Shown here in pieces: positions 1 to 5,927 of a stretch of 7,658 nt of DNA. The translations under genes and the position numbers were made by a program. Numbering within the stretch: the stretch's first letter is position 1; every line of letters begins with the position of its first letter. This DNA is from a virus (taxonomy: Duplodnaviria > Heunggongvirae > Uroviricota > Caudoviricetes). The notes under the pieces were generated by a model. It saw nothing but the letters and a program-made list of their open reading frames with translations, was not told the origin of the DNA and did no database searches. The DNA lies in the IMG/VR virus record IMGVR_UViG_2548876852_000010. One strand, 5' to 3'.

Positions 1-42
1 GATGACGATCAGGGCGATTAACATCGCCTTTTGCTGCTTCAT
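1..42 (-). CDS. hok: Hok/Gef-family type I toxin, first 14 codons only (CDS continues past the window start)
   Basis: Reverse complement of 1..42 is ATG AAG CAG CAA AAG GCG ATG TTA ATC GCC CTG ATC GTC ATC = MKQQKAMLIALIVI, the characteristic N-terminus and start of the single TM helix of Hok/Gef/RelF-type toxins. It is preceded by the typical leader ...gaaaggcaaggagaagcaggct ATG with SD GGAG. Confidence 0.75.
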   Translation of the reverse strand, partial: MKQQKAMLIALIVI

Positions 43-99
43 AGCCTGCTTCTCCTTGCCTTTCGGCACGTAAGAGGCTAACCTAGATTTGCCGTTCAT
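1..99 (-). CDS. mok: mok-like upstream reading frame, in frame with and overlapping hok (translational coupler), partial
   Basis: ATG at 99..97 (minus) opens MNGKSRLASYVPKGKEKQA, which runs in frame into the hok ATG at 42. This is the same arrangement as chromosomal mok/hok pairs, where mok is an N-terminal extension. Confidence 0.45.
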   Translation of the reverse strand, partial: MNGKSRLASYVPKGKEKQAMKQQKAMLIALIVI

Positions 100-170
100 A
101 GATTGAGCCTCAGATTAATGTTAAGCGTCTTGCAGGACGCGTAATGTTAACTGGGGCTTTTCTCTATCTG
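91..170 (+). ncRNA. sok: Candidate Sok-like antisense RNA complementary to the mok translation-initiation region
   Basis: Plus-strand -35 TTGCCT (56..61), 17-bp spacer, -10 TAACCT (79..84), giving a start near 91. The transcript would be antisense to the mok start at 97..99. It contains an inner hairpin GCGTC-ttgcag-GACGC and an outer CCTCAG/CTGGGG stem followed by CTTTTCTC. Boundaries are approximate. Confidence 0.3.
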
Positions 171-217
171 CCTTTGGTGTTCATGCCTGAGACAGATAGC
201 CTCAAGCACCCGCAGCC

Positions 218-246
218 ATTCTACTTAACTCCCGTTACCTCGCCAA
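218..246 (-). promoter_or_regulatory. Candidate hok/mok mRNA promoter
   Basis: On the minus strand: TTGGCG (246..241), 17-bp spacer, TAGAAT (223..218). The predicted transcript would begin near 211 with GGGTGCTTGAGGC..., resembling the 5' fold-back end of hok mRNAs. Confidence 0.35.
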
Positions 247-654
247 TATGAAATCAGTCAGAAAGGCGATCCATAAGAACAACAGCAAGGCAATAAATTG
301 CCATTACAGCAGCAATAGCCAGCGCACATTTGAGAACCAGCACCACAACCTCCTGTATTGGACGTACACCAGTCCTGATAAATATGAGGCTGTCTCGTCA
401 GTGATTCAATACAACTATTGGGTATAGTTTCTGTGATTTTGTTCTGTAGAAATGGAACATAATAACCTGTCACCACCAGCACTTCTTTAAATACGCCAAG
501 TCCGACGCAAGCTAACCTTCTAGCCCGCTTTGAGCGAAGAACGGACTGAGTAATTCAGGCCGTTAGCGACACTATGACATCATTAGCAACCAACTAGGAG
601 TTGGTAATAGATGAGTTAATTAATTGATTAAAAACCGACGATTTTACTAGATTA

Positions 655-684
655 CGGGAAGAAGAAAGGCCGCTGGTACGGCCT
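655..684 (-). terminator. Intrinsic terminator downstream of the small ORF 710..907
   Basis: Minus-strand hairpin AGGCCG-taccag-CGGCCT (667..684) followed by TTTCTTCTTCCC, sitting 26 nt past the ORF stop. Confidence 0.4.
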
Positions 685-709
685 CCCAGAGACTAGTCTA
701 TTGTTATGC

Positions 710-907
710 TTAGAAACGCTTTTCTATCTCTTTTTCTCTTTCGTTTATTGCATCGTCAATGATTTTTTTTGCTGAATTAATTTGTGGTGTTTTTTCTGGT
801 AATACATCTTCAAGATCTTTGGCAATTTTCTTTAATTTATCGATTTCTTTAGTTAAATCAGTTACAGATTTATCCGCTATTGACTTTGTCATTTTTCCAT
901 ATTCCAT
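710..907 (-). CDS. Small hypothetical protein (60-65 aa), lysine/glutamate-rich and predicted helical, in an AT-rich block
   Basis: Open frame with ATG at 907 (alternative ATG at 892 with a weak GGA upstream), TAA at 710..712 and its own hairpin terminator. No strong SD and no recognisable family, so the coding status is uncertain. Confidence 0.35.
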   Translation of the reverse strand: MEYGKMTKSIADKSVTDLTKEIDKLKKIAKDLEDVLPEKTPQINSAKKIIDDAINEREKEIEKRF

Positions 908-1080
908 TCAATTTATTTATCAATCAGTTACCCGTAAACCTTATCATGGATTCCAATTATCGACAGCTGGGATTTTTACTTTCTTGATCTGCCCCAGGCG
1001 AATGACATATCCCCATTAACCAATGTCCGCTCCTAGCACTTAGTAGACATTAATAGATTGTAAGCGTTCCCGTCATGTAG

Positions 1081-1461
1081 CGGTCACCGATTGGTGATGA
1101 ATTGAAGCGGATCATTGATGAAAGTCGCAATAACGTGGCCAGCCCATTTATCGTTCACCAGATCCCGGAACGGCAGGTTAAACGCAGCAAAGAAGTTTCT
1201 CATCCCACTCAAGTTGCACCAGACTATTTGAGTCGGTCGTTTTCAGCTACGCGTGACAAGCTGGGTTTATATGACAAACGGCCGATGGATGAAAGGCCAA
1301 CCTTTCACGAAATTCGCGCCTTAGCAGCACATCTTTTTGATCAGCAGGGCATCGATCCACAAGGACGAATGGCACACAGCGATGCGAAATCAACTAAAAT
1401 CTACACGCAAAACCATATCGACTGGGTTGTAGTTCCACATGGAGAAATTAAAGCCAGCTAG
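1081..1461 (+). pseudogene. int: 5'-truncated lambda-family tyrosine integrase (C-terminal catalytic fragment only)
   Basis: The frame opens right after an in-frame TAG at 1078..1080, and the first start-like codon is TTG at 1102. The translation ends ...PTFHEIRALAAHLFDQQGIDPQGRMAHSDAKSTKIYTQNHIDWVVVPHGEIKAS, mirroring the lambda Int C-terminus (PTFHELRSLSARLY...HLLGH...Y...IEIK), including the catalytic Tyr region. No integrase-like sequence is found in any frame upstream of 1080. Confidence 0.7.
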
Positions 1462-1602: not shown

Positions 1603-2184
1603 TTATCTTCTTTTCAGTTCCTTGGGAAGAAAAGCATCTATTTCTTCTTCAGAAAATGTTAAATCTTCTTTGTTTTTTAATGCGTCCTGTGCTTTTTTAT
1701 AAGCTTCAAATGTTGTACTAGGAGAGCCTGAATACACTGAATGTAAACTCTCGAGTAACGAATCCCGCTCTGACTGCAATTGCTCGATTGGTTTTTCACC
1801 CATTGCTAAGTCTGTAAGCAATGATAAATACTTTTCTCGGATTAACCAGATCTCATTTGCAGCCTGCTTATGTTTTTGCGCCAACTCACCAAGGTCATAA
1901 TCTTTGGTATAAGCGTTAAGAATGAGAAGCAGTGTTGAAACAACAATCCCAACCCCCGTGCCTACTTCACCCGCGCCGAAAAAAGTTGCTAGAAAGCCTC
2001 CAGTAGTTAAGGCGGAGAGAATTATTTGCCAAAACTTTATAGAAGATAGTCGAGATAGGAGAATGTCTGAGCATTTTTCATGCGTCTTATGTGAGTAAAC
2101 GACCCGACCATAACACTCTCTGATCTGCCCTTCTAAAACCCTTCTAGATTCAGGTGTATCCTTAGTCTGGAAATGTTGATCCAT
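1603..2184 (-). CDS. SLATT-like 2-TM membrane effector (predicted partner of the upstream nucleotidyltransferase)
   Basis: The ORF spans 1603..2241. The preferred start is ATG 2184..2182, preceded by GGGAG (aaatggcGGGAGattt ATG), whereas the ATG at 2241 has no SD. Two adjacent hydrophobic helices (FWQIILSALTTGGFLATFF and GVGIVVSTLLLILNAY) are flanked by amphipathic helices with conserved-looking H/Y/W positions (VVYSHKTHEK ... AQKHKQAANEIWLIREKYL), which is SLATT-like architecture. It overlaps the upstream gene by 23 nt. Confidence 0.8.
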   Translation of the reverse strand: MDQHFQTKDTPESRRVLEGQIRECYGRVVYSHKTHEKCSDILLSRLSSIKFWQIILSALTTGGFLATFFGAGEVGTGVGIVVSTLLLILNAYTKDYDLGELAQKHKQAANEIWLIREKYLSLLTDLAMGEKPIEQLQSERDSLLESLHSVYSGSPSTTFEAYKKAQDALKNKEDLTFSEEEIDAFLPKELKRR

Positions 2185-3043
2185 AAATCTCCCGCCATTT
2201 TTGCTTAGCCGACCATTCGCGTTTTGGGGTCGCCATTTCATGCTCTATAGCTTCGAGTGAAATGTTATAGCACCGTTTTGCTTTATATTGGAAAAGCCCT
2301 TTACCATAGACATACTGACCACTTCCTGGCGCTTTCCAATACTCCTTACTCGTATCTTGATCAGCCATCCATTTGAAGAAATCACGACTCATGAAATCGT
2401 AGTAAAGATACGACTTATCTCTATGCGCCCAATTTTCAATGAATTGATACGCAAGCGTATCAATGAGTAAACCACTTATAGGTACATCCCATTTACGCTT
2501 CCAAGCTCTTGCCATTCTACAAAGTTGCACCAAATTGTTATTGGTAATGTTATTTCTTAACCTCATTGCAGAAATTTCTGGCTTTGGATTTGTAATCCTC
2601 CAACGGCCACCACCGTTCGCATCAGGAAATGTGTAACTATCACTAACATTGAGGAAAGCTGGAACGACTTCAAATGTAATTCCATCATTGAACGGTACAA
2701 GGATCACTTGACCGTCACCTCTAATACTAGTGGTAGCATAGGTTTTTTCAATAGATCTCTTAACCGCTTGAAGCAATGCTGACTGCCCATTTCCTAAGTA
2801 GCTATTGTATTTTTGATACTCGGAATATGGTAGCTGAAAAATCATATCCAGATCGCTCAAGCCTTGCGTAGCTGTGTTCCGACCATATGATCCAACGTAG
2901 AGACTATGAGAAGTATCAGAACTGCTATCCCAAAAATCCGTATTTAAACGCTTCGTTATATTCCTATATCTAGTTGAAATTGTTCCACCATCTTTTACAG
3001 TAAGATTGGAGCAAAATCCGCAAAACCACTCAGCTAAACCCAT
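2162..3043 (-). CDS. SMODS / CD-NTase-like nucleotidyltransferase (cGAS/DncV-like, Pol-beta fold)
   Basis: The track ORF 2162..3049 begins at TTG. The first ATG is 3043..3041, preceded by AAGGA. Motif GSYGRNTATQGLSDLD (nt 2846..2893) fits the G[SG]-x(9-13)-D-h-D nucleotidyltransferase signature, followed by a FEVVPAF strand carrying the likely third acidic residue. The N-terminus (AEWF..F...L.L...RY..I..RLN) is typical of SMODS domains. Stop TAA at 2162..2164. Confidence 0.8.
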   Translation of the reverse strand: MGLAEWFCGFCSNLTVKDGGTISTRYRNITKRLNTDFWDSSSDTSHSLYVGSYGRNTATQGLSDLDMIFQLPYSEYQKYNSYLGNGQSALLQAVKRSIEKTYATTSIRGDGQVILVPFNDGITFEVVPAFLNVSDSYTFPDANGGGRWRITNPKPEISAMRLRNNITNNNLVQLCRMARAWKRKWDVPISGLLIDTLAYQFIENWAHRDKSYLYYDFMSRDFFKWMADQDTSKEYWKAPGSGQYVYGKGLFQYKAKRCYNISLEAIEHEMATPKREWSAKQKWREIYGSTFPD

Positions 3044-5897: not shown

Positions 5898-5927
5898 AGT
5901 TTAATAATCAAAACCAAAGAAAGTCAA
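5898..5927 (-). promoter_or_regulatory. Candidate PR-like promoter for the cro/YdaS - YdaT - rep operon
   Basis: On the minus strand: -35 TTGACT (5927..5922), 18-bp spacer, -10 TAAACT (5903..5898). The -10 hexamer is identical to that of the PL-like promoter at 6707..6712. Confidence 0.35.

What the first reader, a model, noticed from the sequence alone, without database searches (positions are those of the whole stretch)
1..246. hok/mok/sok type I toxin-antitoxin locus at the left edge, with all regulatory parts identifiable
The window starts inside a Hok-family toxin gene (MKQQKAMLIALIVI...). Upstream lie an in-frame mok-like reading frame (ATG at 99), a candidate mRNA promoter (TTGGCG-17-TAGAAT) and, on the opposite strand, a candidate Sok antisense RNA with its own promoter and terminator-like stem overlapping the mok start. 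The locus looks intact rather than decayed and directly flanks the integrase remnant and defence cassette, so it may act as a stabilising or addiction module for this island.
Basis: partly seen in the sequence, partly recalled or inferred. Interest (0 to 1): 0.4.

Follow-up and report, generated by a model that had tools for sequence, protein, structure and literature searches.

The report
Prophage hok/mok/sok toxin–antitoxin locus
The left edge of the window is the regulatory half of a well-known prophage-borne hok/sok toxin–antitoxin locus (hokD/hokW type), correctly read by the first stage and ordinary, except that in the closest matching genome an insertion sequence has cut off its 3' control element.

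Summary
Window 1..246 (minus strand) holds the promoter, 5' leader, mok start and first 14 codons of a Hok toxin gene. An antisense Sok gene lies on the plus strand. Rfam RF01794 scores 110 bits (threshold 59). The full Hok, read from matching genomes, is identical to K-12 HokD. The in-frame 70-aa Mok-Hok product is seen on 1000 or more contigs (the tool's counting cap).

The locus is 93.5% identical to hokW-sokW of Shiga-toxin phage Sp5, which has been characterised experimentally. It sits in a Qin-like lambdoid prophage, at a conserved slot between the replication and Q modules. It is therefore a phage moron, not the addiction module of a separate "island".

"Intact" holds only in part. Everything inside the window is intact, unlike K-12 hokD, which lacks this whole upstream half. 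In the closest genome (1 mismatch in 7658 nt) an IS421 sits 23 nt after the hok stop. It separates the fbi element and terminator from the mRNA, as IS186 does at K-12 hokC and hokE. The next-closest genomes are uninterrupted.

This is already known biology and of low interest.

Two side observations: a hypervariable patch lies exactly at the Sok 5' tail and mok start, and a conserved unannotated 29-aa membrane-peptide ORF lies just upstream.

The parts
1..42 (-). 5' part of the hok toxin CDS (ATG 42..40; 14 codons in the window; the CDS continues past the left edge to 51 aa)
   Evidence: Translation. The full CDS in L001 9042..8887 is annotated hokD, WP_000813254.1, the same protein as K-12 HokD. 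Pfam HOK_GEF E=1.2e-23.
52..57 (-). hok Shine-Dalgarno (AAGGAG), 9 nt before the hok ATG
   Evidence: Read directly from the sequence. Homology with K-12 hokD starts at the GGAG of this motif, 15 nt before the ATG.
1..99 (-). mok reading frame: ATG 99..97, 19 codons upstream of hok and in the same frame (70-aa Mok-Hok product)
   Evidence: The geometry matches annotated K-12 mokC/hokC, which share a stop and differ by 57 nt at the start. The exact 70-aa product is on 1000 or more contigs (the tool's counting cap), named Hok family toxin or regulatory protein. The frame is open in all the commonest alleles listed from the IMG/VR sample.
108..111 (-). mok Shine-Dalgarno (GAGG), 8 nt before the mok ATG
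   Evidence: Read from the sequence. In the predicted full-length fold it is paired with the upstream box at 151..158.
56..84 (+). Sok promoter: TTGCCT (56..61), 17-nt spacer, TAACCT (79..84)
   Evidence: Aligns with the promoters of annotated K-12 sokB (TTGCCG-17-TAAGAT) and sokE (TTGCCT-17-TACCAT). The region is identical in hokW-sokW of Sp5, where -10 mutations abolished antitoxin activity. It was not detected by the consensus scan.
91..167 (+). Predicted Sok antisense RNA: single-stranded 5' tail 91..~104, hairpin 105..160, U-tract 158..163. The 3' end is set by homology to sokC and could be about 163.
   Evidence: Fold of -33.3 kcal/mol, z=-6.1. Alignment with annotated sokB, sokC and sokE. 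sokW, the 93.5%-identical relative, was seen on northern blots and is described as 71 nt complementary to the leader. It carries an 18-nt hairpin extension that K-12 sokB, sokC and sokE lack.
37..211 (-). hok mRNA 5' leader (Rfam RF01794 match)
   Evidence: 110 bits against a gathering score of 59, E=4.8e-25, full model 1-157. Scores are comparable for K-12 hokC (118), K-12 hokB (110), Sp5 hokW (113.5) and K-12 hokE (84).
200..211 (-). tac element: the mRNA 5' end, GGGUGCUUGAGG
   Evidence: In the reconstructed or contiguous 419-nt mRNA it pairs with the 3' CCUCAACGCACCC (fbi), in both the MFE and centroid structures, z=-6.5. In the Rfam consensus it pairs instead with AAAAGCCCC.
151..158 (-). 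ucb, the anti-Shine-Dalgarno box (AGCCCCAG) that sequesters the mok SD
   Evidence: Pair list from the predicted folds. It is conserved in all alleles aligned.
218..246 (-). hok mRNA promoter: TTGGCG (246..241), 17-nt spacer, TAGAAT (223..218); transcription start at G211
   Evidence: The -10 and the start site are identical in hokW of Sp5, and homology with hokW begins about 17 nt before the start.
85..106 (.). Hypervariable patch of the family (mRNA +106..+127): the mok SD-to-ATG spacer and codons 2-5 on the minus strand; the Sok 5' tail and start region on the plus strand
   Evidence: Among 91 distinct alleles from 107 IMG/VR contigs, the top twelve 12-nt windows all start at +106..+117. 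Diversity there is about 0.33 per site, against 0.078 for the whole locus and 0.086 at hok third codon positions. There are 14 variants.

Best explanation
Window 1..246 is the regulatory half, plus the first 14 codons, of a hokD/hokW-type hok/mok/sok type I toxin-antitoxin locus. It is carried as a moron in a Qin-like lambdoid prophage of E. coli.

Mechanism (inferred from the R1 paradigm and from hokW-sokW, not shown here):
- The minus-strand promoter at 246..218 makes a hok mRNA of about 420 nt.
- The 5' end of that mRNA (tac, 211..200) pairs with a 3' fbi element outside the window. This gives a stable, closed, untranslatable RNA in which the mok Shine-Dalgarno (111..108) is held by the box at 151..158.
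- Slow 3' trimming opens the leader. mok (ATG 99) is then translated and, by coupling, so is hok (ATG 42).
- Meanwhile the unstable antisense Sok RNA of about 73-77 nt (plus strand, about 91..167, with its own promoter at 56..84) binds the mok start region through its 5' tail. This blocks translation and triggers RNase III cleavage.
- When Sok synthesis stops, Hok is made and permeabilises the inner membrane.

Most likely role, by analogy with the 93.5%-identical hokW-sokW of phage Sp5: Sok is lost after prophage induction, and Hok speeds up lysis and phage release.

If the source genome carries the IS421 seen in its closest relative, the mRNA has lost its fbi and terminator. This copy would then be crippled in the same way as K-12 hokC and hokE.
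For: Shown by tools:
- Rfam RF01794 scores 110 bits, E=4.8e-25.
- The full Hok has the Pfam HOK_GEF domain (E=1.2e-23) and matches PHROG 251, 'MokW-like host killing' (E=2.8e-33).
- The protein is identical to K-12 HokD.
- mok is in frame, 19 codons upstream, as in annotated K-12 mokC.
- The Sok promoter, tail, hairpin and U-tract align with annotated sokB, sokC and sokE.
- The contiguous 419-nt locus is 100% identical in DEC9B, AUSMDU00014361, B1_2 and CM138029. It folds with 5'-3' end pairing, z=-6.5.
- It is 93.5% identical over 396 nt to the VT2-Sakai/Sp5 hokW locus. The published hokW probe YO-597 matches window 54..83 at 30 of 30 positions.
- The prophage context and the conserved slot are seen.

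From the literature:
- The R1 mechanism is described in PMC9841398.
- HokW toxicity, sokW antitoxin activity, loss of sokW after mitomycin C, and halved phage release in the deletion mutant are reported in PMC8621323.

Inferred only: that this copy is transcribed and regulated in the same way.
Against: - No expression data exist for this copy.
- The Sok promoter matches only 7 of 12 consensus positions and was not picked up by the scan.
- The thermodynamic fold of the 3'-shortened mRNA does not reproduce the 'open' tac/ucb conformation. The mok SD stays paired.
- The closest genome has IS421 between hok and fbi, which would remove the stable closed mRNA pool.
- Chromosomal hok loci tested earlier were inactive in post-segregational killing (cited in bioRxiv 10.1101/2025.08.07.668861).
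- Whether this prophage is inducible is unknown.
Confidence: 0.9

Rival explanations
1. This particular copy is a disabled relic. An IS421 (IS186 family) just after the hok stop codon detaches the fbi element and the terminator. The transcript then cannot form the inert, stable full-length mRNA, and the locus no longer works as a delayed killer. This is the state of K-12 hokC and hokE.
For: - The closest complete genome (1 mismatch in 7658 nt) has a 1338-bp IS421 at L001 7526..8863. It has an 11-bp target duplication (GGGAGAATCCC) and lies 23 nt after the hok stop. The fbi-like CCTCAACGCACCC and the terminator lie beyond it.
- K-12 has IS186 19 nt after the hokC stop and 18 nt after the hokE stop.
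- From memory, Pedersen and Gerdes 1999 (Mol Microbiol 32:1090) called those loci inactivated. I could not retrieve that text.
Against: - The window itself does not reach the insertion site, and it is not identical to 2013C-4991 (position 5915 differs).
- The next-closest genomes have a contiguous locus identical to the reconstruction.
- None of 109 IMG/VR contigs with enough 3' flank has an IS186-type end there, and 102 have a contiguous fbi.
- The toxin ORF, both promoters and Sok are untouched, so some activity could remain.
Confidence: 0.45
2. One reading: the locus is an addiction (post-segregational killing) module that stabilises the adjacent integrase remnant and defence cassette, or the whole prophage, in the chromosome.
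For: - hok/sok of plasmid R1 is the classic post-segregational killing system (PMC9841398).
- hok is enriched in prophages (bioRxiv 10.1101/2025.08.07.668861).
- The locus lies 1.4 kb from a CBASS-type cyclase plus 2TM effector pair.
Against: - The 'island' is part of a lambdoid prophage. hok keeps the same slot in many prophages and isolated phages while the neighbouring cargo varies: relBE/flxA in K-12; DUF7167, DUF551, an FRG-domain protein or a GNAT acetyltransferase elsewhere.
- hok is reported not to be enriched near defence systems, at 12% against 9.4% for random placement.
- The chromosomal loci hokA, hokB and hokC failed post-segregational killing and rifampicin-activation tests (cited).
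- The matching genome holds several related hok loci. There are 7 places matching window 1..700 in 2013C-4991, most of them probably matching only the hok part. Their Sok RNAs could cross-protect.
Confidence: 0.12
3. The locus works mainly as an abortive-infection or superinfection defence. An incoming lytic phage shuts off host transcription, Sok decays, and Hok kills the cell before the phage matures.
For: - R1 hok/sok on a high-copy plasmid reduced T4 plating efficiency and plaque size (cited in PMC8621323).
- Prophages often carry defence genes, and a CBASS pair is adjacent.
Against: - The reported T4 effect was modest and came from a high-copy plasmid.
- There is no enrichment of hok next to defence systems.
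- The nearly identical hokW-sokW was shown to help, not hinder, propagation of its own phage.
- Nothing was tested for this allele.
Confidence: 0.12

Closest known systems
hokW-mokW-sokW of Shiga-toxin phage Sp5 / VT2-Sakai / 933W (Takada et al. 2021, PMC8621323)
   Same: - 93.5% nucleotide identity over 396 of 419 nt.
- Identical -10 and transcription start of the hok mRNA.
- Identical Sok promoter region.
- The same 18-nt extension of the Sok hairpin.
- The same in-frame 70-aa Mok-Hok arrangement.
- A lambdoid prophage host element.
- The published hokW mRNA probe matches the window at 30 of 30 positions.
   Different: - The patch at the mok start and Sok 5' tail differs: AUGAACGGCAAAUC here against AUGCUGAACACAUG in hokW.
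- The Hok C-terminus differs: FTAYEPEE here against FVDYESEK.
- The -35 region and upstream flank differ.
- The sequence after the fbi differs, so there is a different terminator.
- The position within the phage genome also differs.
E. coli K-12 hokD (relF) in the Qin prophage
   Same: The Hok protein is identical (WP_000813254.1). The 3' UTR with its fbi-like box and terminator is 98% identical. The synteny is the same, next to DUF968/ydfU and the Q antiterminator.
   Different: In K-12, homology starts only 15 nt before the hok ATG. The promoter, tac, ucb, mok start and sok are all replaced by relBE. The window carries exactly the half that K-12 lacks.
E. coli K-12 hokC/mokC/sokC (gef) and hokE/sokE with IS186
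   Same: The leader has the same architecture (Rfam scores 118 and 84 bits). mokC is in frame with hokC and starts 19 codons upstream. The annotated Sok RNAs have the same promoter spacing, tail, hairpin and U-tract. An IS186-family element sits 18-19 nt after the hok stop, against 23 nt in strain 2013C-4991.
   Different: Identity is only about 75%. The K-12 loci are not in prophages, lack the 18-nt hairpin extension, and have different Hok sequences.
hok/mok/sok of plasmid R1 (the paradigm)
   Same: The same set of elements at almost the same distances. The mok ATG is at +113 here against +116 in R1, and the hok ATG at +170 against +174. In both, 19 mok codons precede hok. The tac/fbi end pairing and an antisense Sok over the mok start are also shared.
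   Different: In R1, as I recall it, mok is out of frame with hok; here it is in frame. According to the paper, HokW shares 44% identity with R1 Hok. R1 is a plasmid stabilisation system with proven post-segregational killing.

Membership tests
[quoted passage not shown] | Small (about 50 aa) hydrophobic Hok/Gef toxin ORF | tested here: met
   Only 14 codons lie in the window. The full 51-aa ORF, read from matching genomes, gives Pfam PF01848 HOK_GEF at 82.9 bits (cutoff 22) and E=1.2e-23. It is identical to K-12 HokD.
[quoted passage not shown] | Overlapping mok leader ORF with its own SD, starting about 57 nt before hok | tested here: met
   ATG at 99..97 with GAGG at 111..108, 19 codons upstream and in frame, as in annotated K-12 mokC. 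The frame is open in all the commonest alleles listed from the IMG/VR sample.
[quoted passage not shown] | Conserved structured hok mRNA leader (covariance model) | tested here: met
   RF01794 scores 110 bits against a gathering score of 59, over the full model length. One compensatory change is visible in the first hairpin among alleles: A15/U46 in one group and G15/C46 in another.
[quoted passage not shown] | Cis-antisense Sok gene with its own promoter, a single-stranded 5' tail over the mok start, a hairpin and a U-tract | tested here: met
   The sequence architecture aligns with annotated sokB, sokC and sokE and is nearly identical to sokW, which has been validated experimentally. The existence of the transcript itself cannot be tested with these tools.
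[quoted passage not shown] | Long-range 5' tac / 3' fbi pairing that closes the full-length mRNA | tested here: inconclusive
   The fbi lies outside the window. In contiguous alleles identical to the window, the pairing is predicted in both the MFE and centroid structures (z=-6.5). In the closest genome the fbi lies 1.3 kb away, behind IS421. Which state the source genome has is unknown.
[quoted passage not shown] | Hok is toxic, and Sok RNA neutralises it post-transcriptionally | not testable with these tools
   This was shown for hokW-sokW, which is 93.5% identical at the DNA level (PMC8621323). It is inferred for this allele.
Post-segregational killing / addiction module | Loss of the locus kills segregants (a stable toxin mRNA outlives the unstable antitoxin) | not testable with these tools
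   The literature cited reports that the tested chromosomal hok loci failed this test. No data exist for hokD/hokW-type prophage loci.

The most novel reading that the evidence does not exclude
The one hypervariable patch in an otherwise highly conserved locus (mRNA +106..+127, window 85..106) coincides with the single-stranded 5' tail of Sok and its target at the mok start. It may be a specificity code kept diverse by selection, so that several hok/sok copies on co-resident lambdoid prophages stay orthogonal. Each Sok would then silence only its own hok, and each prophage would keep private control of its killer.
Probability: 0.2. Interest if true: 0.45.

Novelty: already known. Interest (0 to 1): 0.12.

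Why it matters
The finding matters little on its own. The exact sequence is present and annotated (hokD) in many E. coli genomes, and its near-twin hokW-sokW has been characterised.

It is useful for annotation in three ways:
- It shows what the complete hokD locus looks like, since K-12 lacks the regulatory half.
- It shows that Rfam 'sok' hits mark the hok mRNA strand and not the antitoxin strand.
- It shows that the GC-rich hairpin just after the hok stop is a recurrent IS186/IS421 target, which can silently disable a locus whose ORF looks intact.

The adjacency to a CBASS pair reflects a shared cargo hotspot in the prophage. It does not show a functional link.

Tried and rejected
- The first IMG/VR pattern scan had the spacer lengths wrong and found nothing. 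The corrected pattern worked.
- MFE folding of the 3'-shortened and of the IS-interrupted transcript was meant to show the 'open' tac/ucb conformation. It did not: the 5' end folds on itself and the mok SD stays paired. Thermodynamic prediction therefore neither supports nor refutes the switch.
- I tried to retrieve a text for the statement that IS insertions inactivate K-12 hokA, hokC and hokE (Pedersen and Gerdes 1999). It was not found in the library, so that point rests on the K-12 annotation and on memory.
- I tested whether co-resident copies carry different Sok-tail variants. Only 4 same-genome pairs were available, and 3 of them differ. By my rough estimate from the variant frequencies, about 0.86 of random pairs would differ, so the test is uninformative.
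- Pfam, NCBIfam and PHROG searches for the small upstream ORF gave nothing.
- I considered and rejected the 35-aa plus-strand ORF at 144..251 as a gene. It lies antisense inside the conserved leader and has no support.
- The exact source genome could not be identified. The best match differs at window position 5915.

Full report
**What is in the sequence.** On the minus strand the window begins inside an ORF that starts at ATG 42..40 and reads MKQQKAMLIALIVI.
- An AAGGAG Shine-Dalgarno lies at 57..52.
- A second ATG at 99..97 is exactly 19 codons upstream in the same frame, preceded by GAGG at 111..108.
- The only sigma-70-like site in window 1..700 is TTGGCG(246..241)-17-TAGAAT(223..218) on the minus strand. 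One such hit is no more than chance expectation (1.4).
- That site ends six bases before G211, which is position 1 of a full-length match to Rfam RF01794. The match covers window 211..37 on the minus strand at 110 bits (gathering score 59), E=4.8e-25.

**A point about the Rfam family.** RF01794 is named 'sok', but the match is on the hok strand and its consensus ends on the hok AUG. In K-12 the same model hits the strands of hokC, hokB and hokE. The annotated sokC, sokB and sokE genes lie on the opposite strand, inside those hits. The model therefore certifies the hok mRNA leader. It supports Sok only indirectly.

**Sok.** The plus strand reads TTGCCT(56..61)-17 nt-TAACCT(79..84)-6 nt-G91.
- Downstream come about 14 unpaired bases, a long hairpin (105..160) and a U-tract (158..163).
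- The fold is far more stable than shuffled sequence, at -33.3 kcal/mol and z=-6.1.
- Aligned with the annotated K-12 sokB, sokC and sokE, the promoter hexamers, spacing, start, tail, GC-clamped hairpin and U-tract all correspond.
- The promoter matches only 7 of 12 consensus positions and was missed by the scan, so it rests on homology.
- The hairpin carries an 18-nt extension that the K-12 sok genes lack.

**Leftward extension.** Window 1..700 is 100% identical to 12 complete E. coli genomes.
- The whole window matches strain 2013C-4991 (NZ_CP027355.1) with a single mismatch at position 5915.
- DEC9B and CM138029 are next closest.
- In all of these the ORF continues to a 51-aa protein annotated hokD (WP_000813254.1), identical to K-12 HokD/RelF.
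- It matches Pfam HOK_GEF (E=1.2e-23) and PHROG 251, 'MokW-like host killing'.
- The in-frame 70-aa Mok-Hok product is on record on at least 1000 contigs, the tool's counting cap.

**The 3' half and the IS.** In 2013C-4991 the sequence 23 nt after the hok stop runs into the end of an IS421/IS186-family element.
- The element occupies L001 7526..8863, is 1338 bp long, and is flanked by an 11-bp duplication, GGGAGAATCCC.
- Beyond it lie CCTCAACGCACCC, which is complementary to the mRNA 5' end GGGUGCUUGAGG, and a terminator.
- Removing the IS in silico gives a 419-nt transcript. This is 100% identical to the contiguous loci of DEC9B, AUSMDU00014361, B1_2 and CM138029.
- An uninterrupted junction is present in 4613 of 5426 genomes.
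- That RNA folds with the 5' and 3' ends paired and the mok SD sequestered by AGCCCCAG (window 151..158). The pairing appears in both the MFE and centroid structures, z=-6.5. This is the tac/fbi/ucb logic described for R1 (PMC9841398).
- K-12 hokC and hokE carry IS186 19 and 18 nt after their stop codons. The GC-rich hairpin after hok therefore appears to be a recurrent target for this IS family.
- Among 109 IMG/VR contigs with enough flank, 102 have a contiguous fbi and none has an IS186-type end.

Whether the window's own genome has the IS cannot be decided from the window. The closest relative has it and the next ones do not.

**Relation to known loci.**
- K-12 hokD shares the ORF and 3' UTR, but its homology starts only 15 nt before the ATG. 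Everything the window contains upstream of that point is replaced by relBE in K-12. The window therefore shows the complete form of hokD.
- The closest characterised system is hokW-sokW of phage Sp5/VT2-Sakai, at 93.5% identity over 396 nt. It has the same -10, the same transcription start, the same Sok promoter and the same hairpin extension.
- The published northern probe for hokW mRNA matches window 54..83 at 30 of 30 positions.
- For hokW-sokW, the following were shown (PMC8621323): toxicity of HokW; neutralisation by sokW expressed from its own promoter; partial dependence on RNase III and Hfq; disappearance of sokW after mitomycin C; RecA-dependent HokW production; and a two-fold drop in released phage when the locus is deleted.

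**Context.** The window is part of a Qin-like lambdoid prophage.
- The gene order is cI-like repressor, cro, ydaT, replication organiser and DUF977. Next come a CBASS-type cyclase plus 2TM effector pair (PADLOC E=4.6e-144 and 9.9e-85) and a recombinase pseudogene.
- After a small gene comes hok, followed by DUF968, RusA, the Q antiterminator and the lysis genes.
- In related prophages and in isolated phages (Tritos, HannyBb, Evi, mEp460) hok keeps this slot while the cargo before it changes.
- A recent survey reports hok enriched in prophages but not near defence systems. It also recalls that the tested chromosomal hok loci did not give post-segregational killing (bioRxiv 10.1101/2025.08.07.668861).

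The 'addiction module for this island' reading is therefore the weakest part of the finding. Adjacency to the defence pair is better explained by a shared moron hotspot.

**Most likely mechanism.** The locus is a canonical hok/mok/sok system. It has a closed full-length mRNA that is opened by slow 3' trimming. hok translation is coupled to mok translation. Sok blocks the mok start and triggers cleavage. Its physiological role is probably that shown for hokW-sokW, which is assisting lysis and phage release when the prophage is induced.
- Shown here: sequence identity, all elements, and the predicted end pairing.
- Inferred: transcription, regulation and role.
- If IS421 is present in the source genome, the mRNA cannot form the stable closed pool. 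This copy would then be crippled like K-12 hokC and hokE.

**Side observations.**
- *A hypervariable patch.* Aligning 91 distinct alleles from 107 IMG/VR contigs shows a very conserved locus. Mean diversity is 0.078 per site, and 0.086 at hok third codon positions. There is one sharp hotspot at mRNA +106..+127 (window 85..106), with about 0.33 per site and 14 variants. This is the mok SD-to-ATG spacer plus codons 2-5. On the other strand it is Sok's single-stranded 5' tail, the element that starts target recognition in R1 (from my own knowledge).
  - It may simply be the least constrained stretch of the locus. Alternatively it may be a specificity patch that keeps co-resident copies orthogonal.
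  - Four same-genome pairs, of which 3 differ, cannot discriminate between these.
  - The pattern used to collect alleles fixed the flanking bases. That lowers their diversity but cannot inflate the diversity of the free positions.
- *A small upstream ORF.* Just upstream of the hok promoter lies an unannotated 29-aa hydrophobic ORF (343..254, minus strand). It has an AGGAGG Shine-Dalgarno and a GTG start. It is conserved at the protein level, despite 72% DNA identity, in a diverged homolog that also sits upstream of hok. It has no family assignment.

**Verdict.** The claims of intactness and of an addiction role are only partly supported. The locus is already known, and interest is low.

Noticed in passing
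window 254..343 (minus strand): An unannotated 29-aa hydrophobic ORF (MLVLKCALAIAAVMAIYCLAVVLMDRLSD). It has a GTG start at 343 and an AGGAGG at 354..349. Its stop lies 8 nt before the hok -35. It is present next to hok in the isolated phages Tritos, Evi, mEp460_ev081 and HannyBb. A diverged 34-aa homolog (72% DNA identity, many synonymous changes) is called as a gene upstream of hok in L012 and L019. There is no Pfam, NCBIfam or PHROG family, and sources call it 'hypothetical' or 'membrane protein'. It is probably a real small membrane protein of unknown role.
   Followed up: partly
window 85..106 (mRNA +106..+127): The hypervariable patch of the hokD/hokW family coincides with the Sok 5' tail and with the mok spacer and codons 2-5. 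There are 14 variants among 107 IMG/VR contigs. Diversity is about 4 times that of hok third codon positions. This could be a specificity determinant or merely an unconstrained stretch. The co-residence test was underpowered.
   Followed up: partly
L001 7526..8863 (left of the window, in E. coli 2013C-4991): An IS421/IS186-family element with an 11-bp target duplication (GGGAGAATCCC) is inserted in the GC-rich hairpin 23 nt after the hok stop. K-12 hokC and hokE have IS186 at the equivalent spot, 19 and 18 nt after the stop. This points to a recurrent insertion hotspot that uncouples hok from its 3' fbi element.
   Followed up: yes
window 1603..3043 (minus strand): An overlapping gene pair. 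One gene encodes a SMODS oligonucleotide cyclase (PADLOC PDLC00786, E=4.6e-144). The other encodes a SLATT 2TM effector (PDLC00696, E=9.9e-85). Together they look like a minimal CBASS-type defence cassette carried as prophage cargo. In related prophages the same slot holds other cargo, such as relBE/flxA, DUF7167, DUF551, an FRG-domain protein or a GNAT acetyltransferase.
   Followed up: partly
window 37..211, and K-12 loci L010, L024, L025: Rfam RF01794 'sok antitoxin' matches the hok mRNA sense strand, ending on the hok AUG. It does not match the strand of the annotated sokB, sokC or sokE genes. Automatic annotation from this model would put 'sok' on the wrong strand.
   Followed up: yes
L001 8902..8904 (hok codon 47, left of the window): Tyr47 of HokD is encoded by UAC within a UACG motif. 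The literature read here states that hokC, hokD and hokE mRNAs undergo TadA A-to-I editing that recodes this tyrosine to cysteine (intro of bioRxiv 10.1101/2025.08.07.668861). This was not examined further.
   Followed up: no
window 1062..1461 (plus strand) and 710..892 (minus strand): A frameshifted recombinase remnant, comparable in position to the intK remnant of K-12 Qin. Beside it is a 60-aa coiled-coil-like hypothetical protein with no family hit. A hairpin with a T-run terminator at about 690..660 lies between that gene and the hok region.
   Followed up: no
L150, L151, L153, L154 (genome-contig scan): Exact matches to the E. coli hok leader pattern occur on very short contigs of assemblies labelled Collinsella, Xanthomonas pisi, Candidatus Scatousia and Haemophilus. 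These are most likely contamination or mis-binned E. coli phage DNA.
   Followed up: no
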